Below, in pieces: positions 7,106 through 64,000 of a DNA stretch of 64,000 nt (its first letter is position 1; each line of letters starts with the position of its first letter). Source of the DNA: Patescibacteria group bacterium. Its GTDB lineage: Bacteria; Patescibacteriota; Patescibacteriia; Veblenbacterales; UBA10138. A program made the position numbers and the translations under genes. The stretch spans positions 14,895-78,894 of the forward strand of contig JBAZOT010000003.1 of the NCBI GenBank assembly GCA_041648575.1, read 5' to 3'. The notes below the pieces were generated by a model. That model was not told where the DNA came from. It searched no databases and was given only the letters and a program-made list of their open reading frames with translations.

Positions 7106-7170
7106 GCGGATATGAGAAGTTGCGAAGCAATTTGGGATGAGACTCTGCAAGAGCCGAGACTCATATCCGC
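7106..7170. repeat. 65-bp GC-rich palindromic element
   Basis: Perfect 11-bp arms GCGGATATGAG / CTCATATCCGC with inner mini-hairpins TTGC-GAA-GCAA and CTCT-GCA-AGAG. It shares GCGGAT and CGAAGCAAT with the pheT insert. Confidence 0.6.
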
Positions 7171-7171
7171 T

Positions 7172-7237
7172 GTTAGGCGAGGGTGAGCGACCAACGGGAG
7201 CGAAAGTGCAACGCCCCCTTGAGTTCAAACCTGAGCC
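7172..7237. repeat. left terminal inverted repeat of the SDR cassette, interrupted by a 41-bp GC-rich insert (7181-7221)
   Basis: GTTAGGCGA[41 nt]AGTTCAAACCTGAGCC matches the reverse complement of 8032-8056 (GTTAGGCGAAATTCAAACCTGAGCC) at 24/25 once the insert is removed. Confidence 0.65.
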
Positions 7238-7247
7238 GTCCCTCAAT

Positions 7248-7982
7248 TTAGTTTTTAACATTCTTTTGCTTGATTACAATAATTTGTCCAGTAATATGAT
7301 CTGCCTCTTTTGAAGCTAAAAACAAAGTCAAGCTTGCGACATCTTCGGATTGAAGTGCGTTATCTGGTGTAGCATCATCTGGGAAAAATTTTTTGTACGC
7401 TTCAGTTGCTACATCAGAAGGCGAAATGCAATTAACTTGAATTTGATGATTTCTAAGTTCGTGAGAAAGTCCAACCGTTAAATCTTCAATCGCTTTTTTG
7501 GACACGAAATAAGGAAGCCAACCTTTTGCGCCACTCTCGAAAGTTCCTGAAATGTTGATGATTTTACTACCTTGTTTCATTAAGGAAACGAGTTCGTGTG
7601 ATAAAATGGTTGGCGCAGTTAAACCCACTGCGTAAGTATCCAAAATTTCATCGGTTGAATAATCAGCAAATTCAATCCCTGAAAACGCTTTGTCTTTAGA
7701 GTGCCAAATACCAGCAACATTGACGAGAATATCTATTTCGCCTTCTGACTCCTTGATATTTTGAGCAAACTTTTTTATCTCATCAACACTTCTTAAGTCA
7801 ACACAAAAAATTTTTCCTTCGCTACCTGCTTCTTTAACAAGCTCAAGTGTTTTTTCTAAACCATCTTTGGAGCGAGCCAAAAGCATAGTTTTCGCACCTT
7901 CCGAAGCGAGCTTGACGGATATAGCACGACCAATGCCAATACTTGCACCTGTGATGACGGCAATTTTGTTTTTTAGCTTCAT
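7248..7982 (-). CDS. short-chain dehydrogenase/reductase (SDR) family oxidoreductase
   Basis: Contains TGASIGIGRA (TGxxxGxG), NVAG and the catalytic YFVSK (YxxxK). 244 aa. Confidence 0.85.
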   Translation of the reverse strand: MKLKNKIAVITGASIGIGRAISVKLASEGAKTMLLARSKDGLEKTLELVKEAGSEGKIFCVDLRSVDEIKKFAQNIKESEGEIDILVNVAGIWHSKDKAFSGIEFADYSTDEILDTYAVGLTAPTILSHELVSLMKQGSKIINISGTFESGAKGWLPYFVSKKAIEDLTVGLSHELRNHQIQVNCISPSDVATEAYKKFFPDDATPDNALQSEDVASLTLFLASKEADHITGQIIVIKQKNVKN

Positions 7983-8149: not shown

Positions 8150-8310
8150 CCCACCTCCGCCCTGGCTGCAGGTAAATTTTCCAACCATTTTCTTATTCGC
8201 ACGAATAAGAAAGTAGTAATCCAGGGATAACCACTTAAATACCCAACTTCTTTACCCGCCTCCGCTAAAGCTTCTGGCTTCGCTCTAGCTTAGGCGGACA
8301 ACTCGGTGGG
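8150..8310. other. GC-rich multi-hairpin element between the gyrB stop and the SDR cassette
   Basis: Long-range pairs are CCCACC/GGTGGG, TCCGCC/GGCGGA and CCCTGG/CCAGGG. There is a perfect 10-bp hairpin at 8190-8211 and a local hairpin CCGCCT-AAGCT...AGCTT-AGGCGG. Confidence 0.4.
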
Positions 8311-8318
8311 CAGGCATT

Positions 8319-10373
<2,055 letters not shown>

Positions 10374-12881
10374 TTAATGATCTCTAACTTCTGCGTTAAA
10401 TTTTTTAATTAATATTTGCTTAATCTTTTCTATTACCTTGTCCACTTCTTCTGATGTTAATGTCCTATCCGAGGCACGTAAAGTCACGGTAAAGGCGATA
10501 CTGTGTTTAGGGGCGTAAACATCAAATAGTTCAATTGATTCTAATAAATCCATATTCTCAATTTCTTTTTGAATTTGAGACCAAGTTACCCTTTCTGGCA
10601 AAATAATTGATAGATCTCTCGCAGCTTCGGGGTACTCTGGTGGCGGTTCCGATGGGCTGGTCGGCCCTATTTCCAACATATCAAGTGACAACTCAATTAC
10701 TGCAGTAAATTCAGGCAAATCTAACTCCCGTCGTAATTTTTCTTGCAATATCCCGATGTGCCCAACTGTCTCGTTATTAATAATAATATCGGCTGCCATA
10801 TTTTCATTAAACCAGTCATGCTTAATTTTTTGCACTTCCACTAACTTAAAATCATTTTCCAGTTCATGGCCGATCTGTACGAGAACCCCAACCATATCAC
10901 GGTAACACCGGAGGAGGTCATCTCGTTCGTCACGTTTATTTCTACCAAGAACTATACCCAAATGAAACGGCTGTTTGGGTAAATTGCCACCCCCAGGTCT
11001 TCGTAAATACTCCTTACCGGATTCCGCCACAAAGACCCGGCCAATTTCAAACATTTTAACATTTTTATGTTTCTGACTATTTAAACCGGCTTGCCCTAAA
11101 AAGTTGGGTAATAAAGTTGGTCGTAAATAAGGCTTGCCCTGATCTGTTGGGTTTTCTAATTCAATACTTAAATCGCTTGTTATATGTTTACCTCTAATAG
11201 TCAGCCCAAAGTTTTGTAAATCTTTTTCACCCACAAATGAATGACTTAAAGTCTCTGTAAACCCAGCACCAATCAAGCACTCACGAATTTTTTGCATTAA
11301 CAATTGCTTTTCATCGGCCAATGGTTTAGTAATGGTAAAACTCGGCAGACTCGGCGTAATTTTTCCATAACCATAAATCCGTGCTACTTCCTCCAACAAA
11401 TCTTCACGAATTGTTACGTCTCTAGTGGCCCGCCATGAAGGCACGGTTACTTGCCATTTGACCACGCTGTCATCGCGATCCGCCCTGATCGGAGTGGCGA
11501 TCTTATGAGATTGCTTCGATCCGCTCGCAATGACTTTTATTTTAAAACCCAAATTCTCCAATATATTTTTAATCTGGCTATATTTTATTTTCGTACCCAA
11601 ACGCTCATTAATCCAATCGGGATTTACATTAATTTCAACCGGTTTAAATTTTTTAGGATATTCATCAACTAGGTCGCTGGCAACTTTTACGCCTGTAATT
11701 ATTTGTTGCATTATAGCCACAAAGCGCTTAATGCCAATTTCTGCTAGTTCTGGATCCAAAGCTTTTTCAAAACGAACAGATGCTTCGCTGCGTAAACCAA
11801 GTTTGCTGGCTGTTTGTCTTATACTAATCGGATTAAAAGTCGCAGATTCTACCACCAAGTTAGTTGTGCTAGATGAAACCTCACTAAACTCGCCACCCAT
11901 TACGCCAGCCACAGCAATCGCACTTTTATCATCAGCAATAACCAACATCTCACTGGATAATTTTCTGGATTCTCCATCTAGTGTTTTTATTACCTCTCCG
12001 GAGTTTGCTGTTCTGACAACAATTTTTGGAGAAGATAATTTTTGTAGATCAAAAGTGTGCAGTGGTTGGCCAGTTTCCAACATTACATAATTAGCAGCGT
12101 CCACCACATTATTTATTGATCTCATACCCAGGGCTTCTAATCTATTCTTTAACCATGTTGGTGATGAGGTAATCTTAATTCCAGCCAGCACCACCCCCAT
12201 ATACCTGTGGCATAAATCAGAGTTTTTAATTTCAACTTTAAACCCATTAGAGCCTTTTGGCAAATCAGCCAATTCCGGTAGTTTTAATTTTGTATTCCAC
12301 AAAGCTGCTAACTCCCTAGCCACACCCAAATGACTCCACAAATCAGGTCGATGAGTAATTGATTTATTATCAACTTCAATAACCAAATCATCTTTACCTA
12401 AAGCTTTGGCTAATAGTGTTCCAGGTTTAGCATCCAAATACGATAAATCCATAATGCCGTGCTCTGGTTCGTTATCATCAACCAAACCTAATTCTGCGGC
12501 CGAACAAGCCATACCATTACTTTTAACTCCACGAATAGTAGCAGCTTCCAATGACGCAAATTCACCCTCTCCATGCCATTTGACCAACGCGCCAGGTTGA
12601 GCCAGCGCGACTTTCATTCCTTCTTTTAAATTAATTCCTCCGCATACTATTTCCACTGTTTTGCCACCAATATCAACTGTAGCTAACTTTAATTTATCAG
12701 CATTAAGATGTGTTGATACTTTTATAACTAAGCCTACCGTGACTTTATTCAACTTTTCTGCCTCGCTGGTAACTGATTCTACCTCCATAACTGACATAGT
12801 CAAAAGCTCGCCCAACTCGCGCGCACTGATCCGCTTGGGTTTAACTATTAACTCTGCTAATGTTTTGTAAGAAAGATGCAT
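10374..12881 (-). CDS. pheT: phenylalanine--tRNA ligase beta subunit
   Basis: 835 aa with an N-terminal tRNA-binding domain, B3/4 and B5 domains, WQVTVPSWRATRDVTIREDLLEEVARIYGY, and a C-terminal FDX-ACB domain. Confidence 0.95.
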   Translation of the reverse strand: MHLSYKTLAELIVKPKRISARELGELLTMSVMEVESVTSEAEKLNKVTVGLVIKVSTHLNADKLKLATVDIGGKTVEIVCGGINLKEGMKVALAQPGALVKWHGEGEFASLEAATIRGVKSNGMACSAAELGLVDDNEPEHGIMDLSYLDAKPGTLLAKALGKDDLVIEVDNKSITHRPDLWSHLGVARELAALWNTKLKLPELADLPKGSNGFKVEIKNSDLCHRYMGVVLAGIKITSSPTWLKNRLEALGMRSINNVVDAANYVMLETGQPLHTFDLQKLSSPKIVVRTANSGEVIKTLDGESRKLSSEMLVIADDKSAIAVAGVMGGEFSEVSSSTTNLVVESATFNPISIRQTASKLGLRSEASVRFEKALDPELAEIGIKRFVAIMQQIITGVKVASDLVDEYPKKFKPVEINVNPDWINERLGTKIKYSQIKNILENLGFKIKVIASGSKQSHKIATPIRADRDDSVVKWQVTVPSWRATRDVTIREDLLEEVARIYGYGKITPSLPSFTITKPLADEKQLLMQKIRECLIGAGFTETLSHSFVGEKDLQNFGLTIRGKHITSDLSIELENPTDQGKPYLRPTLLPNFLGQAGLNSQKHKNVKMFEIGRVFVAESGKEYLRRPGGGNLPKQPFHLGIVLGRNKRDERDDLLRCYRDMVGVLVQIGHELENDFKLVEVQKIKHDWFNENMAADIIINNETVGHIGILQEKLRRELDLPEFTAVIELSLDMLEIGPTSPSEPPPEYPEAARDLSIILPERVTWSQIQKEIENMDLLESIELFDVYAPKHSIAFTVTLRASDRTLTSEEVDKVIEKIKQILIKKFNAEVRDH
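11469..11534. repeat. 66-nt palindromic element inserted in frame in pheT
   Basis: GTCATCGCGA...TCGCAATGAC termini. On the coding strand it is exactly 22 codons (VIASGSKQSHKIATPIRADRDD) in the loop before WQVTVPS. Confidence 0.7.
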
Positions 12882-24022: not shown

Positions 24023-24220
24023 ATGATTATCTATATCTACGACATATTAACCCCTGATGACCTAACCATCACTGAACTTAGAGAATTAATGAATCATTAT
24101 GGCCAAAAAGGAATTAAAGTCAAAGTGCTACACATAGAAAAAATTCGGGGGGGAATTGTACAAAATTGCGGTAATATTATTTTACAAACAACACAAGAAG
24201 TGGCTACCATCCAAAAATAA
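24023..24220 (+). CDS. orphan 65-aa protein encoded antisense inside the atp operon
   Basis: AAGGAG lies 8 nt before the ATG, an upstream TTGACA is at 23937-42, and an intrinsic terminator follows directly. No recognisable family. Confidence 0.4.
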   Translation: MIIYIYDILTPDDLTITELRELMNHYGQKGIKVKVLHIEKIRGGIVQNCGNIILQTTQEVATIQK

Positions 24221-24256
24221 AATACTCCTGTCAAATATCAATTTATTCGTTTCTTC

Positions 24257-24295
24257 AACTCCAGCGATGAATACATCAACGGAGTTTTTTATTTT
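24257..24295 (+). terminator. intrinsic terminator of the 65-aa ORF
   Basis: AACTCC (24257-62) pairs with GGAGTT (24281-86), followed by TTTTTATTTT. Confidence 0.55.
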
Positions 24296-24320
24296 CTTAA
24301 AATTACAGTTTTTATTTTTT

Positions 24321-24388
24321 CTGGATTCCCCCACTACGCGGGGCAAGCCGCTGGAGTTTATCCCCGCGTAGGCGGGGACGGGAATGAC
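24321..24388. repeat. GC-rich palindromic element ending in GGGAATGAC
   Basis: CTACGCGGGG (24334-43) pairs with CCCCGCGTAG (24362-71). It lies in the atpG-atpD gap. Confidence 0.5.
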
Positions 24389-24427
24389 GTTTTTAAATCT
24401 TACTCTATACTCTTACTCTTACTTAAT

Positions 24428-31591: not shown

Positions 31592-31629
31592 TAGTCATTT
31601 TTATGTCTGGCCAGACATAAAAATGACTA
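31592..31629. repeat. 38-bp perfect palindrome TAGTCATTTTTATGTCTGG|CCAGACATAAAAATGACTA
   Basis: Read directly from the sequence. It shares the outer arms CAACTAGTCATTT...AAATGACTA with 32712-32749. Confidence 0.8.
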
Positions 31630-31843: not shown

Positions 31844-32566
31844 CTAAAACGATTGAAATGATCGGACAATCTTATCCACCCAGCTAGCCCTACGCATTAA
31901 CTCGTTAGCTATCTGCGGTGCTTGACCCTCCATTACCTTCGCCTCCTCAATCAGTATATTCCTCATCTCAACATTGGTGAGACCAGAAACATCATACCAA
32001 GCCAACGCGGTATCCAGATAAGAAATATTACCTGGTTCCATGTATCGTTCTCCAGTAACAACACTACGCATACCGTCGCTATAGAAACTGAGATACAAAT
32101 TACCAACCATCACCGCCGAGCGCGAAGCTGATACCGTATCACCGCACTTGATGTATAAGTGATAAGCATACTCTGGAAAACTCTTTCTCCCATAACCATC
32201 ATCACAATGTGGTATCCCATAGTATGTTAAGTCTGCTAGGAGTAAGCCCCACCCCTGACGTCTCTTGAACCAGTATGGATCATCACAGGAACTATCACAT
32301 ATCTGATAAATCCTTCTCACTGTGTTTACAAACTCCCAACCACAATAAAATGGGTCATCGGTCCCTGAATAACCCCCTACATCAGTCCATGAATAATTAT
32401 CTGGGTTATATCTCATACCCTCCACAATCTTATACTCGACCAGATTCTTGACCAAAGTGCGATAAGACTGTTCAGGGGACTCTTGCTTTTCCTTGGCAGG
32501 TAAAGTGTTATTTATGACTAAACCAGCCACAGCCAAAAAGATAATGATTGTAAAGTACTTTTTCAT
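31844..32566 (-). CDS. secreted Cys-rich hypothetical protein
   Basis: 240 aa with signal peptide MKKYFTIIIFLAVAGLV and 8 Cys. By eye it is more GC-rich at codon third positions than its neighbours. It has its own promoter and terminator. Confidence 0.55.
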   Translation of the reverse strand: MKKYFTIIIFLAVAGLVINNTLPAKEKQESPEQSYRTLVKNLVEYKIVEGMRYNPDNYSWTDVGGYSGTDDPFYCGWEFVNTVRRIYQICDSSCDDPYWFKRRQGWGLLLADLTYYGIPHCDDGYGRKSFPEYAYHLYIKCGDTVSASRSAVMVGNLYLSFYSDGMRSVVTGERYMEPGNISYLDTALAWYDVSGLTNVEMRNILIEEAKVMEGQAPQIANELMRRASWVDKIVRSFQSF

Positions 32567-32711: not shown

Positions 32712-32749
32712 TAGTCATTTACCCTTTCGCGCGAAAGGGTAAATGACTA
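32712..32749. repeat. 38-bp perfect palindrome TAGTCATTTACCCTTTCGC|GCGAAAGGGTAAATGACTA
   Basis: Read directly from the sequence. It lies between the arsR-like stop and the promoter of the 240-aa gene. Confidence 0.8.
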
Positions 32750-32777: not shown

Positions 32778-33056
32778 TTAGCTAGTCTGACGGACTTGCT
32801 TAAGAAGCTGCTGCAACAAACTACTTAACCCCTCATCTAAACTATATAGACCTACGTATCCAAATTGCCTGCGTTCTAAAAACCCCACTTGCCGCAATAG
32901 CACTAAGTGTTTAGAGGTGGACTTAAATGATAGATGAATCGCCGTCGCAACGTCACCTACTGTCCGCTCTTTACCATCGGACAACAACCTTAGTATCTCC
33001 AGCCGCTTTCTCGCACCCAGCGCCCGGTAAACCTTTTCTAACTCTCGTAGACGCAT
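32778..33056 (-). CDS. ArsR/SmtB-family transcriptional regulator
   Basis: 92 aa with a winged HTH: LGARKRLEILRLLSDGKERTVGDVATAIHLSFKSTSKHLVLLRQVGFLERR. I see no obvious metal-binding Cys. Confidence 0.8.
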   Translation of the reverse strand: MRLRELEKVYRALGARKRLEILRLLSDGKERTVGDVATAIHLSFKSTSKHLVLLRQVGFLERRQFGYVGLYSLDEGLSSLLQQLLKQVRQTS

Positions 33057-33062
33057 GTTGGT

Positions 33063-33100
33063 AGTATATCATATTTACTGATTCGCGCGAAAGGGTAAAT
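33063..33100 (-). promoter_or_regulatory. leaderless arsR promoter (TGA TATACT, 6 nt from the ATG) overlapped by a degenerate copy of the TTTACCC..GGGTAAA palindrome
   Basis: ATTTACTGATTCGCGCGAAAGGGTAAAT (33073-33100) covers the -35 position and may be an operator. Confidence 0.45.
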
Positions 33101-33120
33101 AATCATATAAACCAACACAT

Positions 33121-57913: not shown

Positions 57914-58678
57914 TTAAATCCTTTTGCGTTTTTCCATCACAGAAAGTGTTAAATATACATTAACAAGCCCCCTCATTCTATTATTGGGAGATCCATCTTT
58001 ACCAAGCACTGCATCAGTTATAGAATCACAACCACATCCATAATCTTTTTTATACTGGTCATGAATATACTTTTCTAACACGGGAATAGCTAAAAATTCC
58101 TCAGTAAAAATAAAGTGCTCGTCTTGCTCCGCCAAAATCATTGGTAAAATAATACGCTGATGAATTTGAGAAACCTCTGGTAAGTTGGCTAAAATTGCTG
58201 CTTCATATGTAGTTAATCTACTCTCGTTGATACTACGATTACGACTGACAGCATAATACACGATGTACAAAAAATCTTTTAAATGCTTTTTGTCCTGCTC
58301 CCGATGAGAAATATTCTCATTGCTTGAAAAAAAATTTAAAATATTAAGTACAAATTTACCAATATTTGGATTTTTGTCCTGTGCCAAAAGGCTAAAGTCA
58401 AGACAAGCGCAAAGAACCGAACGTGCCTTTTCCGCTACACTATCGTTATAACAATTCAATTGACTACCTTTATAACTCCTGCCGGGTGACATATCAGCGA
58501 ACTCTATAAGCAAGTTAAAAGCCTGTTCCACCTCAATATATGACTTTTTTACGCCAAAGTACTGACCCACCGCATGGAGCAACCCGATCGCCTCATCTGT
58601 ATTTGTCAAGTTGGGGTTATACAACTTCTCTTCAATTTCTTTGAATGAAGTGGTTGGTGTAAAATCTCGTTGTATCAT
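57914..58678 (-). CDS. hypothetical cytoplasmic protein (orphan)
   Basis: 254 aa with TAGGAG 8 nt before the ATG. I recognise no family. Confidence 0.5.
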   Translation of the reverse strand: MIQRDFTPTTSFKEIEEKLYNPNLTNTDEAIGLLHAVGQYFGVKKSYIEVEQAFNLLIEFADMSPGRSYKGSQLNCYNDSVAEKARSVLCACLDFSLLAQDKNPNIGKFVLNILNFFSSNENISHREQDKKHLKDFLYIVYYAVSRNRSINESRLTTYEAAILANLPEVSQIHQRIILPMILAEQDEHFIFTEEFLAIPVLEKYIHDQYKKDYGCGCDSITDAVLGKDGSPNNRMRGLVNVYLTLSVMEKRKRI

Positions 58679-58836
58679 TGTTAAAACTCCTATATTATTT
58701 TTGTATTTCGCCCGCCTATTTTAGGCCGGCTTGGTTAGTTATTTTTCTCAGGCTTAACCCGAGTATATTACCTTAATACTTTGAGTATTTTAAGTCAAAT
58801 TCTTATTGCCTCGCTAGGGCGTTTGATTTAAATATT

Positions 58837-58967
58837 GCCACCATAGCGAGGGTAAGGTAACGGCGTGGAACCGGAGCGAGCGAAATGGTAGCCGCGTGTT
58901 GTGTCCTTGCGGCATAGCGGCTACCGTGAGCTACGGTAACGCCGTCTTGCCCGAAGCTCTAGGTGGC
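58837..58967 (+). ncRNA. candidate structured RNA or long imperfect palindrome (131 nt)
   Basis: Nested pairs GCCACC/GGTGGC, GGGTAAG/CTTGCCC (a U.G pair only on the plus-strand RNA), ACGGCGT/ACGCCGT and GGTAGCCGC/GCGGCTACC. Possible promoter TTGCCT-17-TAAATA upstream and GGTGG..CCACC-ACTTTTTTT downstream. Confidence 0.3.
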
Positions 58968-58976
58968 GCTTTTTCC

Positions 58977-59001
58977 CACCACTTTTTTTAAAAAAGTGGT
59001 G
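58977..59001. terminator. perfect palindrome CACCACTTTTTT-T-AAAAAAGTGGTG (bidirectional terminator-like)
   Basis: Read directly from the sequence. It lies between the rplT terminator and the GC-rich palindrome. Confidence 0.45.
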
Positions 59002-59073: not shown

Positions 59074-59427
59074 TTAAGTTTTGGGTTTAACCATTTCTAC
59101 CACTTTGGAAAAAATAATAGGATGTTCAGCAGCTAATTCAGATAATACTTTTCGGTTCAAAGTAACTTTGGCTTTTTTTAATAAATTAATAAATTGACTA
59201 TAGGTTAACCCATGCTCCCTAACCGCGGCATTTAATCTAATAGTCCAAAGTTTGCGGAACTCCCGCTTACGGTTGCGGCGATCACGATAAGCATAAACAC
59301 CAGCTTTACGAGACGCCACTTTAGCTAGTTTAATCTTACTCTTGCGACCCCAACGGTAACCTTTGGTCCGTTTTAAAATATTTCTTACTCTTTTAGCGTG
59401 CATTACGCCGCGTTTTACTCTAGACAT
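59074..59427 (-). CDS. rplT: 50S ribosomal protein L20
   Basis: MSRVKRGVMHAKRVRNILKRTKGYRWGR is a typical L20 sequence. Confidence 0.95.
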   Translation of the reverse strand: MSRVKRGVMHAKRVRNILKRTKGYRWGRKSKIKLAKVASRKAGVYAYRDRRNRKREFRKLWTIRLNAAVREHGLTYSQFINLLKKAKVTLNRKVLSELAAEHPIIFSKVVEMVKPKT

Positions 59428-60292: not shown

Positions 60293-60550
60293 TTAAATTA
60301 GACTTAATGTTTCTCTTAATATTAGATGTAAAGATTTTTTCCCAGGATTAGTTTTAAAATATTTCTCGCGCCTTAGGGCGTCACCCTTAGCTAAAAAACC
60401 TTCATAAAAAATTAATTTACACGGGCGTCTATTCTTGGTAGCGGGTGCCCCTCCTGCGTTATGTGTTTTAACTCTGTCCTTTAAATTCGAAGTAAAACCA
60501 ATATAAAACTTTTTATCTTTCAAACTATATAATAGGTAAACGTAATACAT
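60293..60550 (-). CDS. GIY-YIG nuclease family protein (small stand-alone type)
   Basis: Matches MYYVYLLYSLKDKKFYIGFTSNLKDRVKTHN...ALRREKYFK. I prefer ATG 60548-50 over the upstream start in the ORF track. Confidence 0.8.
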   Translation of the reverse strand: MYYVYLLYSLKDKKFYIGFTSNLKDRVKTHNAGGAPATKNRRPCKLIFYEGFLAKGDALRREKYFKTNPGKKSLHLILRETLSLI

Positions 60551-60593
60551 TTGTCTACTGCCCTTAAAGTACGCGCTTCGCTTGACTTTAGGG

Positions 60594-60700
60594 CATGAAG
60601 TATATGCTAGCAAATTAATACGCCATGAAGTTGTATAAAGAAGTAAATACTTCTTGGCTCGCCATGAAGTTATGCGAATAAAATGAGCATATACTTCATG
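60594..60700. repeat. cluster of CATGAAGT/ACTTCATG repeats abutting the tmRNA 3' end
   Basis: A 15-bp inverted repeat CATGAAGTATATGCT (60594-608) pairs with AGCATATACTTCATG (60686-700). The direct repeat CGCCATGAAGTT occurs twice, and there is an inner hairpin AGAAGTA-AA-TACTTCT. Confidence 0.6.
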
Positions 60701-61081
60701 GTGGAGATGGCGGGAATTACACCCGCGTCTAAGACAATTAACTTTACCCTTCTACAAACTTAGTCTGATTAATTTTGACAGAAGTCAAATCAGACCAAAG
60801 CCCCTGTCAATCTGTCCTAAGTAATGTCGGCCTAAGCACTAGAACAATACTTAAACCCTGCTCGATAAATGACGCTCTATAAGACTATCGAGATCGTCTA
60901 ATAGAACGGCCTCTGCTTAAATTAAGCAAAAGCTGGTGCTAGTGTCAAAGTGCTAAAAGCAGCTTTGGCGCGAGCTACAAATGATTTGGCATTTGTGAAG
61001 TGTGATGCTTTTATTACGCAGACACATCAACTGCGGTCTGCCAGACAAAGATCACTGCCTTATCGATTGTTAAACATCCCC
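60699..61081 (-). ncRNA. ssrA: tmRNA (transfer-messenger RNA)
   Basis: The 5' GGGGATG pairs with the 3' CATCTCC-A-CCA, including a G3.U pair. T-arm GCGGG-TGTAATT-CCCGC. An internal tag frame ends ...LAPAFA-TAA with the stop inside hairpin GCTTAA-TT-TAAGC. Adjacent to smpB. Confidence 0.85.
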
Positions 61082-63250: not shown

Positions 63251-63274
63251 CCATCAATAAACATTGAGGTTACG

Positions 63275-63310
63275 AAGGAGTTATCAACGCATAACTCCTT
63301 TTTTATTTTT
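63275..63310 (+). terminator. intrinsic terminator
   Basis: AAGGAGTTAT-CAACGC-ATAACTCCTT followed by TTTTATTTTT. Confidence 0.7.
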
Positions 63311-63327
63311 AAGCCTTAGTGTTTGCC

Positions 63328-63398
63328 GTCATTGCGATTGTCACCCTACGGGTGATCTCCCGAAGGGACGACTTCGTCACGTTGTTCCTCGCAATGAC
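63328..63398. repeat. 71-bp palindromic element with GTCATTGCGA/TCGCAATGAC termini
   Basis: Perfect 10-bp terminal inverted repeat. Inner hairpins are TCACCC-TAC-GGGTGA, TCCC-GAA-GGGA and GACGA-CT-TCGTC. The termini match those of the pheT insert. Confidence 0.7.
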
Positions 63399-63407
63399 AA
63401 AAAAATG

Positions 63408-63425
63408 GTTGTTCCTCACAATGAC
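63408..63425. repeat. solo right-end copy GTTGTTCCTCACAATGAC
   Basis: Matches 63381-63398 at 17/18, lying 27 nt downstream of it. Confidence 0.55.
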
Positions 63426-63450
63426 CAAAAAACGACCAAACGCGTAGGTC

Positions 63451-64000
63451 CTATTTATTTAATATCTGCTCGGCTTTACCGATTAAGTTCTGAGCTTGAA
63501 ATTGCTTTTCTATCAACTCCGCTTTTCCAATCAATGCTTGAGCATTGGTTTTGCTTACCACCAACTTTTCCAAATTCTCGCCAATAGTACCAGAAAGCTT
63601 GCCTTGAGATAATTTATGCCCCAAAGTAGTATCTAATTCTTGGTACAATTTATCAATCATCGCTTGCTGTTCCCCGCCGTAACTGCCCTTAAAACTCGCT
63701 AATGCTGTTTTGGTATCAAGCGACAATACTTTATTTACTAAATTATGATCTTGAGCAGCAGGAATTATTTCAAATCTGCTTTTTAATATTCTCACATAAT
63801 CAGCCAGCTCGGTTTGCGCGTTTTTAGCCAGCTCATAAGTATGTGTCACAGTTTCAGCATCAAATTTATTTTTATCAATAAATTCCACTGCTAAATTTTT
63901 ATTAGTAGCAGGCGACAATAACTTGGTCTGTAATTTTACACCGTCAGTGACGCGATTATGCTTTACCATCTCGTCTACATAATTATAATCAACTTCTTTC
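63451..64000 (-). CDS. hypothetical helical protein; the 5' end probably lies beyond the window
   Basis: The frame stays open upstream of the M at 63969 (KEVDYNYVDEMVKHN...). The C-terminus has the internal repeat LIGKAE. No family recognised. Confidence 0.5.
   Translation of the reverse strand, partial: KEVDYNYVDEMVKHNRVTDGVKLQTKLLSPATNKNLAVEFIDKNKFDAETVTHTYELAKNAQTELADYVRILKSRFEIIPAAQDHNLVNKVLSLDTKTALASFKGSYGGEQQAMIDKLYQELDTTLGHKLSQGKLSGTIGENLEKLVVSKTNAQALIGKAELIEKQFQAQNLIGKAEQILNK

What the first reader, a model, noticed from the sequence alone, without database searches (positions are those of the whole stretch)
63328..63425. Family of palindromic elements sharing GTCAT...ATGAC termini but unrelated interiors
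What the sequence shows: 63328-63398 is GTCATTGCGA-[51 nt with three mini-hairpins]-TCGCAATGAC, followed 27 nt later by a solo end, GTTGTTCCTCACAATGAC. The pheT insert (11469-11534) has the same 10-bp ends but a different interior. The two 38-bp perfect palindromes (31592 and 32712) have arms AGTCATTT/AAATGACT. The element at 24321-24388 ends in GGGAATGAC. Translating through these repeats generates the spurious ORFs 63264-63587, 24156-24371 and 11451-11672. Inference: there is a common recognition motif (GTCAT/ATGAC) for a nuclease or transposase, analogous to REP elements and their RAYT transposases. It is encoded elsewhere or has been lost.
Basis: partly seen in the sequence, partly recalled or inferred. 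Interest (0 to 1): 0.5.

Follow-up and report, generated by a model that had tools for sequence, protein, structure and literature searches.

The report
GTC-tagged hairpin repeats, nuclease-linked family
The small GC-rich palindromes in this candidate-phyla-radiation genome are real copies of a repeat family found across many bacterial phyla, whose GTC-tagged hairpins are the kind recognised by a small single-strand-DNA nuclease (Ssn), and one copy sits in frame inside an essential tRNA-synthetase gene.

Summary
E1 (63328-63398) and E2 (11469-11534) share 10-nt GTCAT[T/C]GCGA/TCGCAATGAC ends. So does a fourth copy 3.4 kb beyond the window. Each is a tags-outward pair of hairpin units built [C/T]GTC-ATTGC-GAG-variable mini-hairpin-CGAA-GCAAT-CC. 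The variable mini-hairpins explain the "unrelated interiors". E3 (24321-24389) is a single CGTC-ATTCCC...GGGAAT-CCAG unit of the dRS3/RPE-6/NTS type with further units nested in its loop. The "solo end" is a 27-bp tandem duplication.

These are CGTC-tagged REPs (Di Nocera 2013), the same thing as Ssn-related motifs (Chenal 2025). The ATTGC type occurs in at least eight phyla and in viral contigs. It flanks small single-domain GIY-YIG (Ssn-like) genes in four independent loci. The published SRM search pattern misses it. So a dedicated recognising enzyme is likely, but it is a GIY-YIG ssDNA nuclease, not a RAYT.

No matching Ssn lies in the 83 kb available. An 85-aa GIY-YIG gene at 60293-60550 is a distant relative and only a weak candidate. 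E2 is a 22-codon in-frame insert in a PheT B5 loop that carries such inserts in several CPR lineages. The 38-bp palindromes P1/P2 cannot be assigned; P2 may be an ArsR operator.

The parts
63327..63398 (.). E1: ATTGC-type element. It has the CGTC tag and perfect 10-nt terminal inverted repeats GTCATTGCGA/TCGCAATGAC. Read on the minus strand it is one unit, GTC-ATTGC-GAGGAA-[three mini-hairpins]-ACAAT-C, followed by the terminal 8-10 nt of an inverted partner. It lies between convergent genes, downstream of a terminator-like hairpin at 63276-63300.
   Evidence: (DNA fold -17.7 kcal/mol, z -4.0)
63381..63432 (+). A 27-bp tandem duplication of E1's right end plus 9 nt of flank.
   Evidence: period 27, 1.9 copies, 92% match
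11468..11535 (.). E2: ATTGC-type tags-outward dimer, 66 bp = 22 codons, in frame in pheT. Its peptide on the gene strand is VIASGSKQSHKIATPIRADRDD. The plus-strand unit is TGTC-ATCGC-...-GCGAT-CTT, with a compensated stem change. The minus-strand unit is AGTC-ATTGC-GAGCGGATCGAA-GCAAT-CTC.
10374..12881 (-). pheT (phenylalanine-tRNA ligase beta chain), the host gene of E2. The insert sits in the B5-domain loop between LGF and W.V.VPSWRA.
   Evidence: (the 67-position B5 profile spans 89 residues)
24321..24389 (-). E3: a single CGTC-1/NTS-type unit on the minus strand, CGTC-ATTCCC-[GTC-CCCGC-CTAC-GCGGG-GA ... inverted copy]-GGGAAT-CCAG. Smaller tagged hairpins are nested in its loop. It lies in an atpG-atpD spacer of 543 bp; the syntenic relative L127 has about 80 bp there.
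   Evidence: (the same nested form in L061)
31592..31629 (.). P1: a 38-bp perfect palindrome, (CAAC)TAGTC-ATTTTTATGTCTGG|CCAGACATAAAAAT-GACTA. Family membership is unresolved.
32712..32749 (.). P2: a 38-bp perfect palindrome with the same outer 9-nt arms as P1 and the inner core TTTACCCTTTCGCGCGAAAGGGTAAA. That core recurs, untagged, at 33072-33101. P2 lies between an ArsR-family gene and ORF 31844-32566.
33072..33101 (.). P3: an imperfect, untagged copy of P2's core, 16 bp upstream of the ArsR-family gene's start codon. It is a likely operator.
   Evidence: (I16)
32778..33056 (-). A 92-aa ArsR-family HTH regulator, too short for the 100-aa ORF list.
   Evidence: PF01022, E 7e-8
60293..60550 (-). 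An 85-aa single-domain GIY-YIG protein, 149 bp downstream of the tmRNA gene and 2.8 kb from E1. It is a distant relative (28% identity, hhalign probability 97%) of the Ssn-like family whose genes are flanked by ATTGC-type units. It is a weak candidate for the cognate nuclease.

Best explanation
E1, E2, E3 and a fourth copy just outside the window are members of the NGTC-tagged hairpin repeat superfamily. That superfamily was described as CGTC-tagged REPs and, independently, as Ssn-related motifs.

The unit is a strand-specific hairpin. It has a 5' unpaired tag [C/T]GTC, a stem that starts with AT, and a short C-rich tail. In the type found here the basal stem is ATTGC/GCAAT. It encloses a G/A-rich internal loop and an apical mini-hairpin, often with a GNA triloop, whose sequence is free to vary. 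Two units usually sit tail to tail with the tags outward. That arrangement gives the GTCATTGCGAG...CTCGCAATGAC termini and the apparently unrelated interiors.

In single-stranded DNA, at replication forks or on incoming transforming DNA, such units are bound and cut just upstream of the tag by a small single-domain GIY-YIG nuclease, Ssn. Ssn genes are themselves flanked by their own motif. Copies persist where they do no harm: in intergenic spacers, and in surface loops of proteins when the length is a multiple of three and the frame is open, as in PheT.

Shown here: the family, its unit structure, its spread across phyla, and its linkage to GIY-YIG genes.
Shown by others: ssDNA-specific cleavage of the sister NTS motif by SsnA.
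Inferred: that an Ssn acts on the ATTGC type, that this genome encodes one, and how new copies arise.
For: Family and anatomy:
- Units number 277 against 7 in the control.
- Among 443 units the base before GTC is C in 59%, T in 36% and A in 4%. The tail is CCA, CTC or CCC.
- In the commonest interior, GAGCGNAGCGAA, N is C 45, A 37, T 22 and G 16. That is what a GNA triloop allows.
- 230 of 286 units lie in tags-outward dimers.
- The stem variant ATCGC/GCGAT recurs in E2 and in L240.

Literature:
- Di Nocera 2013 (PMC3733652) describes the CGTC tag, AT-first stems, CCA tails, head-to-head dimers, in-frame intragenic copies and no linked transposase. VIPAKAGI/DSRFRGND corresponds to CGTC-1, dRS3 and RPE-6.
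- Chenal 2025 (PMC11893778) defines NTS as CGTCATTCCCGCGMAVGCGGGAATCYRG and shows it is cut only as ssDNA by the 94-aa GIY-YIG protein SsnA. Ssn genes are flanked by their motifs.

Linkage of the ATTGC type to Ssn-like genes:
- L042 (Woesebacteria) and L078 (Flavihumibacter) each have a roughly 100-aa GIY-YIG ORF flanked on both sides by ATTGC units.
- Viral contigs L259 and L260 show the same; L260 has 6-7 units around a 98-aa ORF.
- More distant relatives at 39-45% identity (L261, L262, L265, L266, L279, L280) are flanked by hairpins that match the published SRM pattern. That pattern has 0 hits in 361 kb of background.
- Tagged hairpins are 1.62 per kb in the gene flanks, against 0.13 per kb in the rest of the same loci.

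In-frame tolerance:
- Most of the 39 PheT homologues compared have a 3-residue loop where E2 sits.
- L126 and L240 carry the same element type at that site, and L127 is empty.
- A phage gene shows an in-frame presence/absence case.
Against: - None of E1-E4 matches the published SRM search pattern, and that pattern has no hit in the 83-kb contig.
- The ATTGC unit has a 5-bp basal stem with an internal loop. It lacks the 8-9-bp stem and 4-5-nt loop given for the four published CGTC families.
- No Ssn of the ATTGC-linked type lies in the 83 kb I could read.
- The one GIY-YIG gene present is only 28% identical to that type and is not flanked by tagged hairpins.
- I could not run CDD, so assigning the L042-type proteins to cd10448 rests on homology to genes flanked by regex-positive SRMs.
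- Only 2 of the 120 genome loci carry the nuclease gene, so the linkage rests on four loci plus the literature.
- Cleavage of ATTGC units has not been tested by anyone.
- E1 is degenerate: its inner GCAAT reads ACAAT.
- Nothing here shows how copies spread.
Confidence: 0.7

Rival explanations
1. REPIN-like elements mobilised by a Y1 (RAYT/IS200-like) tyrosine transposase. The enzyme would recognise the hairpin and the 5' tetranucleotide in ssDNA and would cut and rejoin it.
For: - The architecture parallels REP/REPIN: a 5' tetranucleotide tag at the hairpin foot and inverted doublets.
- GNA triloops point to DNA-level hairpins.
- The REP/RAYT precedent is described in PMC6006769.
Against: - The tag is CGTC/TGTC, not GT[AG]G.
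- Di Nocera et al. found no Y1 gene flanked by CGTC repeats, although many host genomes encode Y1 proteins.
- In my loci the genes embedded in ATTGC arrays are GIY-YIG.
- The precomputed Pfam lists for the 83-kb contig show no Y1_Tnp or any other transposase family.
Confidence: 0.08
2. Classical MITEs: internally deleted insertion sequences whose 10-11-bp terminal inverted repeats are bound as duplex DNA by a DDE transposase acting in trans.
For: - Perfect 10-11-nt terminal inverted repeats with variable interiors.
- E1 keeps both termini although one half is reduced to 8-10 nt.
- In L076 the dimer is embedded in a larger 142-nt repeat.
Against: - There are no target-site duplications at E1, E2 or E4 or in the 126 flanks listed.
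- Single units without a partner, and units of sister types, carry the same tag, stem and tail logic. That fits hairpin units, not duplex TIRs.
- No parent IS with these ends turned up in any locus.
Confidence: 0.04
3. The elements are kept mainly for an RNA- or DNA-level host function, such as transcript 3'-end stabilisation, termination or supercoiling. They are not substrates of a dedicated nuclease.
For: - E1 lies between convergent genes and E3 lies inside the atp operon spacer.
- REPs are reported mostly downstream of ORFs.
- The predicted folds are stable.
Against: - E2 and many other copies lie inside coding sequence.
- No Rfam family matches, even at permissive thresholds.
- A proper terminator hairpin already precedes E1.
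- Copy numbers vary widely between species.
- This rival does not explain why GIY-YIG genes sit inside arrays of the repeat.
Confidence: 0.1
4. P1 and P2 are not members of the family. P2, together with the untagged P3, is an operator for the adjacent ArsR-family repressor. P1 is a lineage-specific palindrome or a bidirectional terminator. The GTCAT they share with E1-E4 is coincidence.
For: - P3 carries P2's core 16 bp upstream of the ArsR gene, and P2 lies upstream of the next gene.
- A scan of 241 million metagenome records for ACTAGTCATTT-N(10-40)-AAATGACTA gave 74 stretches. By my estimate that is near chance, and few of them are palindromic.
- None of the 112 other perfect palindromes in the genome and viral loci begins with GTCAT within the narrow window tested (flank 3 + first 7 arm bases).
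- The halves of P1 and P2 do not fold on their own.
Against: - P1 and P2 share 13 nt and then diverge completely, yet each stays perfectly palindromic. That mirrors the conserved-base, variable-apex logic of the family.
- AGTC tags occur in 4% of units and in SRMs that flank Ssn genes.
- A doubly tagged hairpin, TGTCATTCCCGCGAAAGCGGGAATGACA, exists in the syntenic relative L127.
- P1 and P2 are 2 of only 5 perfect palindromes with arms of at least 10 nt in 83 kb.
Confidence: 0.5

Closest known systems
Ssn-related motifs (SRM), including the Neisseria NTS, with their Ssn GIY-YIG ssDNA nucleases (Chenal et al. 2025, Nat Commun 16:2388)
   Same: - A 5' HGTC(A/T)(C/T) tag directly before a hairpin, with strand-specific orientation.
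- Hundreds of copies, spread across phyla.
- Small single-domain GIY-YIG genes flanked on both sides by the motif (L042, L078, L259, L260).
- E3's outer part reads CGTCATTCCC...GGGAATCCAG, which is the NTS frame.
   Different: - The ATTGC type fails the published degenerate pattern, which requires two pyrimidines after the tag.
- Its stem is 5 bp plus an internal loop and a variable apical mini-hairpin.
- It occurs mostly as tags-outward dimers.
- It is frequent inside genes; NTS is intragenic in about 2% of cases in N. meningitidis.
- No cleavage data exist for this type.
- CPR hosts are not mentioned in the main text of that paper.
CGTC-tagged REP superfamily, families CGTC-1 to CGTC-4 (Di Nocera, De Gregorio, Rocco 2013, BMC Genomics 14:522)
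   Same: - A CGTC/TGTC tag, stems that begin with AT, and a CCA-like tail.
- Predominantly head-to-head dimers.
- In-frame intragenic copies that encode 20-30 residues.
- No linked transposase.
- E3 corresponds to CGTC-1 (peptides LDS...GND and VIPA-type).
   Different: - The published families have 8-9-bp stems and 4-5-nt loops. The ATTGC type does not.
- I found no trace of it (VIAS.../...PRND peptides, ATTGC) in the text or supplementary tables held. Their Figure 2 could not be read.
- The host phyla listed there do not include Patescibacteria, Cyanobacteria or Chloroflexi for CGTC repeats.
Rickettsia palindromic elements (RPE), especially RPE-4 and RPE-6
   Same: Small palindromic repeats inserted in frame into essential genes at permissive surface sites. 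Di Nocera et al. equate RPE-6 with CGTC-1 and RPE-4 with CGTC-4.
   Different: A different host clade and a different stem sequence. Here the same loop of one protein (the PheT B5 domain) carries inserts in several divergent lineages.
REP/REPIN elements with RAYT (TnpA-REP) transposases
   Same: A hairpin with a 5' tetranucleotide at its foot, inverted doublets, and a cognate enzyme gene embedded among its own repeats (REPtron versus SRM-ssn-SRM).
   Different: The tag is GT[AG]G and the enzyme is an HUH-Y1 protein. Here the tag is NGTC and the linked gene is GIY-YIG.

Membership tests
CGTC-tagged REP superfamily (Di Nocera 2013) | An unpaired 5' tag CGTC (also TGTC or CCTC) at the foot of the hairpin | tested here: met
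   The tags are CGTC (E1, E3, both E4 units), TGTC (E2 plus-strand unit) and AGTC (E2 minus-strand unit). Family-wide the base before GTC is C in 59% and T in 36%.
CGTC-tagged REP superfamily (Di Nocera 2013) | The stem begins with A-T, T-A pairs | tested here: met
   The stems are ATTGC/GCAAT, ATCGC/GCGAT and ATTCCC/GGGAAT.
CGTC-tagged REP superfamily (Di Nocera 2013) | A stem of 8-9 bp and a loop of 4-5 nt | tested here: not met
   ATTGC units have a 5-bp basal stem, an internal loop and an apical mini-hairpin. Interiors are 10-45 nt, with a mode of 12. E3's loop is expanded to 50 nt.
CGTC-tagged REP superfamily (Di Nocera 2013) | A short 3' tail, mostly CCA | tested here: inconclusive
   E3 has the tail CCA(G). 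E2 and E4 have CTT, CTC, CCC and CTT. Family-wide the tail is CCA in 35%, CTC in 26% and CCC in 11%.
CGTC-tagged REP superfamily (Di Nocera 2013) | Mostly inverted (head-to-head) dimers, with in-frame intragenic copies | tested here: met
   230 of 286 units lie in tags-outward dimers, though the sample was selected on dimers. In-frame copies are in PheT and in a phage gene.
Ssn-related motif (Chenal 2025) | A match to HGTCWYN(0-2)YYVSBRHN(0-5)WNVSBRGN(0-2)RNCYNB | tested here: not met
   The pattern finds the NTS but not canonical ATTGC units, and it finds nothing in the 83-kb contig. It does find hairpins that flank more distant relatives of the same GIY-YIG family.
Ssn-related motif (Chenal 2025) | The motif flanks a single-domain GIY-YIG gene under 150 aa of the Ssn clade, often on both sides | tested here: met
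   This holds for the ATTGC family in L042, L078, L259 and L260. It is not shown for the window's own genome.
Ssn-related motif (Chenal 2025) | The linked protein belongs to CDD family cd10448 | not testable with these tools
   No CDD search is available. Indirect evidence: the proteins are 39-55% identical to GIY-YIG proteins flanked by regex-positive SRMs. Pfam gives only PF01541.
Ssn-related motif (Chenal 2025) | Bound and cut only as single-stranded DNA, on one strand, upstream of the tag | not testable with these tools
   This needs an in-vitro nuclease assay.
REP/REPIN with RAYT | A 5' GT[AG]G tag and a Y1 transposase gene flanked by the repeats | tested here: not met
   The tag is NGTC. 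The precomputed Pfam lists for the 83 kb show no Y1_Tnp or other transposase family. The genes inside the arrays are GIY-YIG.
MITE | Terminal inverted repeats plus target-site duplications | tested here: not met
   Terminal inverted repeats are present. No direct repeats flank E1, E2, E4 or the 126 sampled copies.
Ssn family, for the window's 85-aa GIY-YIG protein | A small single-domain GIY-YIG gene flanked by NGTC-tagged hairpins | tested here: inconclusive
   It is single-domain, 85 aa, and matches the Ssn-like profile with hhalign probability 97% at 28% identity. No tagged hairpins flank it or its close homologues. Those homologues sit just 3' of tRNA or tmRNA genes.

The most novel reading that the evidence does not exclude
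The ATTGC-type dimers are a cross-phylum Ssn-motif family that I found described in no source I could search. They have their own highly conserved Ssn clade, 65-75% identical between CPR, cyanobacteria and proteobacteria. SRM-ssn-SRM units would move horizontally, partly on phages, and seed the repeats, which then enter permissive loops of essential genes such as PheT again and again. The tmRNA-adjacent 85-aa GIY-YIG gene in the window would represent a second, sister family of small nucleases that sits at the 3' ends of tRNA and tmRNA genes with its own CATG-containing hairpin repeats.
Probability: 0.3. Interest if true: 0.6.

Novelty: new member of a known kind. Interest (0 to 1): 0.4.

Why it matters
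For over a decade CGTC-tagged repeats had no known partner enzyme, until the 2025 Ssn work on Neisseria. This window matters for four reasons.

- The same logic extends to ultra-small CPR genomes.
- It involves a repeat type that the published search pattern cannot see, although that type is among the most widespread of these repeats in public genomes.
- That gives a concrete motif-enzyme pair to test for new ssDNA-cleavage specificities.
- It explains a common class of spurious ORFs and assembly breaks in metagenome bins.

It also shows that a single loop of an essential enzyme (PheT B5) repeatedly tolerates such inserts. That is useful for annotation and for thinking about how selfish hairpins shape proteins in reduced genomes.

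Tried and rejected
- **Rfam.** Gathering and permissive thresholds on the window and on 12 canonical loci found no family for any element. Only tmRNA and chance miRNA-like hits on P1/P2 turned up.
- **Literature by sequence string.** The ATTGC type and its peptides (VIASEAKQS, FAPRNDG and others) gave only primers and unrelated hits. The CGTC-1 string led to the Ssn paper.
- **Integron attC and Xer/dif-like sites.** I considered these for P1/P2 and for the conserved-ends, variable-interior pattern. I dropped them because the core sequences do not fit and there is no cassette array.
- **tRNA-like cloverleaf for E1.** ARAGORN finds nothing and the loops are 3-4 nt.
- **Loose census in the contig.** Counting GTCAT plus a 3-nt stem is not above shuffles (15 against 13.3). 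That statistic is uninformative at this stringency.
- **Empty-site search among all fetched loci.** This was meant to define exact insertion boundaries. Only one informative case appeared, a phage gene at about 70% identity. It is too diverged to place the junction to the base.
- **Larger repeats around multi-copy loci (L076, L006).** I found a 142-nt composite repeat, not an IS.
- **Relatives of the window's GIY-YIG in viral contigs.** There was one locus, with no tagged hairpins.
- **Recovering the rest of the contig.** Look-ups extended the sequence to 83 of its 101 kb. One look-up failed because the true gene is longer than the ORF I gave.
Full report
**Source and setting.** The window is part of a 101-kb metagenome contig (ENA ERZ27249422, k141_75984). 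A second sample (SRR8449827) holds shorter contigs that encode the same proteins. Its PheT is listed by NCBI under 'Patescibacteria group bacterium'. G+C is 37% and nearly all genes are on the minus strand. By looking up end-proximal proteins I extended the readable sequence to 83 kb.

**What is in the sequence.**
- E1 (63328-63398) is 71 bp with perfect 10-nt ends GTCATTGCGA/TCGCAATGAC, and it is preceded by C.
- E2 (11469-11534) is 66 bp with ends GTCATCGCGA/TCGCAATGAC.
- E3 (24321-24389) reads, on the minus strand, CGTC-ATTCCC...GGGAAT-CCAG.
- P1 and P2 are perfect 38-bp palindromes that share CAACTAGTCATTT and AAATGACTA.
- The 'solo end' after E1 is the second copy of a 27-bp tandem duplication.
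- A fourth, textbook copy (E4) lies 3.4 kb past the window end, at L124 15061-15168. It reads cGTCATTGCGAG-TCCGCCAGAGGCGGA-CGAAGCAATC...GATTGCTTCG-TCCTCCGATAGACATCGGAG-TCCTCGCAATGACg.
- The exact 10-mer occurs five times in 83 kb, always at element ends. With up to one mismatch the window has 7 copies against 2.7 expected.

**The family outside the window.** It returned 120 loci from Alpha-, Gamma- and Deltaproteobacteria, Bacteroidota, Cyanobacteria, Chloroflexi, Nitrospirae, Firmicutes and CPR lineages (Berkel-, Woese- and Saccharibacteria). The same pattern occurs in 38 viral contigs.

The copies show that each half is a unit of its own: [C/T]GTC-ATTGC-GAG-(mini-hairpin)-CGAA-GCAAT-CC(A).
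- In 871 kb such units number 277, against 7 in a control that asks for a non-complementary 3' stem.
- The commonest interior is GAGCGNAGCGAA, with all four bases at N (C 45, A 37, T 22, G 16). Others are GAG-G(GNA)C-GAA or longer stems of unrelated sequence that stay self-complementary. This is the pattern expected of a C-G-closed GNA triloop. From general knowledge, that motif is unusually stable in DNA, which is a hint that the relevant form is single-stranded DNA.
- Most units sit in pairs with the tags outward.
- E2's plus-strand unit has ATCGC...GCGAT in place of ATTGC...GCAAT. The change is compensated within the half, not between the two ends. The same variant recurs independently in another CPR PheT insert.

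**E3.** Its outer frame is the dRS3/NTS frame. Inside the loop are smaller tagged hairpins (GTC-CCCGC-CTAC-GCGGG-GA and an inverted copy). The same nesting is seen in a Saccharibacteria locus (L061: TGTCATTCCCGCGGAGCCTGTCCCCGCGAAGGCGGGGAGCGGGAATCCA). The syntenic relative L127 has about 80 bp between atpG and atpD, where the window has 543 bp. L127 carries CGTC-1-type units elsewhere.

**What is known.** Di Nocera et al. (2013) defined CGTC-tagged REPs by these features: a CGTC or TGTC tag, stems that begin with AT, CCA tails, mostly head-to-head dimers, in-frame intragenic copies and no linked transposase. Their CGTC-1 equals Neisseria dRS3 and Rickettsia RPE-6, and their intragenic peptides (VIPAKAGI, DSRFRGND) are the translations of E3-type units. 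I found no sign of the ATTGC type in the text or tables held for that paper, and its figures cannot be read here.

Chenal et al. (2025) showed that the NTS (CGTCATTCCCGCGMAVGCGGGAATCYRG) is bound and cut, only as ssDNA and only on one strand, by SsnA. SsnA is a 94-aa single-domain GIY-YIG protein. Thousands of homologues are flanked by 'Ssn-related motifs'. In Neisseria the pair limits integration of transforming DNA.

**Linking the ATTGC type to Ssn.** I searched all ORFs of the fetched loci with GIY-YIG profiles.
- Two of the 120 genome loci hold a roughly 100-aa GIY-YIG ORF. In both, ATTGC units lie on both sides. In Woesebacteria L042 a dimer sits 5 bp from one end of the ORF and a unit 8 bp from the other. 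In Flavihumibacter L078 the gene lies inside a dense array.
- This protein type is very conserved, 65-75% identical, across CPR, cyanobacteria, proteobacteria, Cloacimonetes and Elusimicrobia.
- Its relatives in viral contigs follow a gradient. At 52-55% identity they are flanked by ATTGC units (L259; L260 has 6-7 units around a 98-aa ORF) or by an ATGCC variant (L258). At 39-45% identity they are flanked by hairpins that match the published SRM pattern, which has no hit in 361 kb of unrelated loci. At 36-41% identity they are flanked by NGTC-ACCCCGGA hairpins.
- Tagged hairpins are twelve times denser in the 400-bp flanks than in the rest of the same loci.
- The published SRM pattern does not match ATTGC units.

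I conclude that ATTGC units are the cognate motif of one Ssn clade. This is inference from gene linkage, not from an assay.

**The window's own enzyme question.** No L042-type gene is in the 83 kb. The window does encode an 85-aa single-domain GIY-YIG protein at 60293-60550, 149 bp after the tmRNA gene and 2.8 kb from E1.
- It aligns end to end with the Ssn-like profile (28% identity, probability 97%). Like that profile, it has UPF0213 proteins as its best solved relatives.
- Neither it nor its close homologues are flanked by tagged hairpins. The homologues sit 80-140 bp after tRNA-Ser or tRNA-Gly genes, amid other CATG-containing repeats.

I rate it a weak candidate, about 15%, for the enzyme that acts on E1-E4.

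**E2 and PheT.** E2 adds 22 residues (VIASGSKQSHKIATPIRADRDD) to the B5 domain. The 67-position Pfam profile spans 89 residues. Most of the 39 homologues compared have a three-residue loop there.
- The nearest homologue (59% identity, L126) has an ATTGC dimer two codons away in the same frame.
- A 45%-identical one (L240) has an ATCGC-type unit there.
- The 53%-identical L127 is empty.
- Other CPR lineages carry different GC-rich palindromes in the same loop.

At these divergences an inherited neutral insert should have lost its DNA palindrome. Repeated insertion into a permissive loop, or homogenisation by other copies, is therefore more likely than one ancient event. This is inference. Both samples encode the identical PheT with the insert. 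Contigs from other assemblies end inside E1 and inside the L126-type insert, as expected for multi-copy repeats.

**P1 and P2.**
- For membership: an NGTC tag followed by AT, a shared base with a variable but perfectly palindromic apex, AGTC tags in 4% of units, and a doubly tagged CGTC-1 hairpin in L127.
- Against: the halves do not fold alone. The metagenome-wide scan found 74 stretches, near chance by my estimate and mostly non-palindromic. P2's core recurs untagged (P3) 16 bp upstream of an unlisted ArsR-family gene, so P2 and P3 look like operators.

I leave this at even odds.

**Mechanism and limits.** Cleavage upstream of each tag would nick opposite strands at the two outer borders of a dimer. 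That alone does not excise or copy the element, so how new copies arise remains unknown. Chenal et al. raise an IS-like SRM-ssn-SRM origin. No target-site duplication is seen. The genome scan was truncated, so taxon counts are lower bounds. The unit statistics come from loci selected for perfect dimers.

**Verdict.** This is a real feature of a known kind. It is a member family that I did not find in the two key papers' text or held tables, or in string searches of open-access full text. It occurs in a phylum not mentioned there, with an instructive in-frame copy.

Noticed in passing
window 60293-60703: The 85-aa GIY-YIG gene sits 149 bp downstream of the tmRNA gene. The spacer holds a 15-nt inverted repeat (60594-60608 and 60686-60700) and two exact copies of AACTTCATGGCG. 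Close homologues in other CPR contigs sit 80-140 bp after tRNA-Ser or tRNA-Gly genes, next to tandem or palindromic CATG-containing repeats. This may be a small element that targets the 3' ends of tRNA and tmRNA genes.
   Followed up: partly
window 60561-60593: A hairpin, CCCTAAAGTCAAGCGAAGCGCGTACTTTAAGGG, lies just upstream of the GIY-YIG start codon. Its apex AGCGAAGCGCG is identical to a common interior of ATTGC units and is preceded by GTCA. It could be a degenerate unit or chance.
   Followed up: partly
window 32778-33056 (minus strand): An unlisted 92-aa ArsR-family regulator. It is flanked by the related palindromes P3 (upstream) and P2 (downstream, ahead of the secreted-looking ORF 31844-32566, which has no family match).
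   Followed up: partly
PheT B5 loop: window 11469-11534; L126 2997-3074; L240 and L241 inserts: The same surface loop of PheT carries in-frame GC-rich palindromic inserts of at least two unrelated repeat families in several CPR lineages. Most homologues have three residues there.
   Followed up: partly
window 58835-58984 (plus strand): A GC-rich imperfect palindrome of about 135 nt, in the spacer between rplT (59074-59427) and ORF 57914-58678, folds into one long hairpin (-74.8 kcal/mol, z -5.1). It has no Rfam match and belongs to a different repeat family from E1-E4.
   Followed up: partly
window 8250-8319: A GC-rich palindrome, CCGCCT-AAGCT...AGCTT-AGCGG-type, lies directly after the gyrB stop codon (fold z -2.8). 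It is untagged and resembles the inserts seen in other CPR PheT genes.
   Followed up: no
window 7134-7246: A 113-nt island of 66% G+C lies in the spacer next to the short-chain dehydrogenase gene (7248-7982). It has no Rfam match and no clear excess of folding energy (z -1 to -1.8).
   Followed up: partly
window 24023-24220 (plus strand): A 65-aa ORF lies on the opposite strand inside the enlarged atpG-atpD spacer, next to E3. The syntenic relative L127 has only about 80 bp there.
   Followed up: no
L225 941-1015 and L236 2260-2334, against L239, L233, L213 and L211: A conserved gene in viral contigs carries an in-frame ATTGC dimer (VIASVAKQSQGIATSPRFIGAPRND) in two contigs and lacks it in four homologues at about 70% identity. 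Several viral contigs hold 2-3 copies.
   Followed up: partly
L125 (ends at window 63365) and P0019 (partial PheT that ends in the insert): Contigs from independent assemblies break inside the elements. This fits high copy number, and these repeats probably fragment CPR bins.
   Followed up: no
L076 1536-1677, 5537-5678 and 7289-7430: In one genome the 70-bp dimer is embedded in a 142-nt composite repeat present three times within 6 kb, in both orientations.
   Followed up: partly
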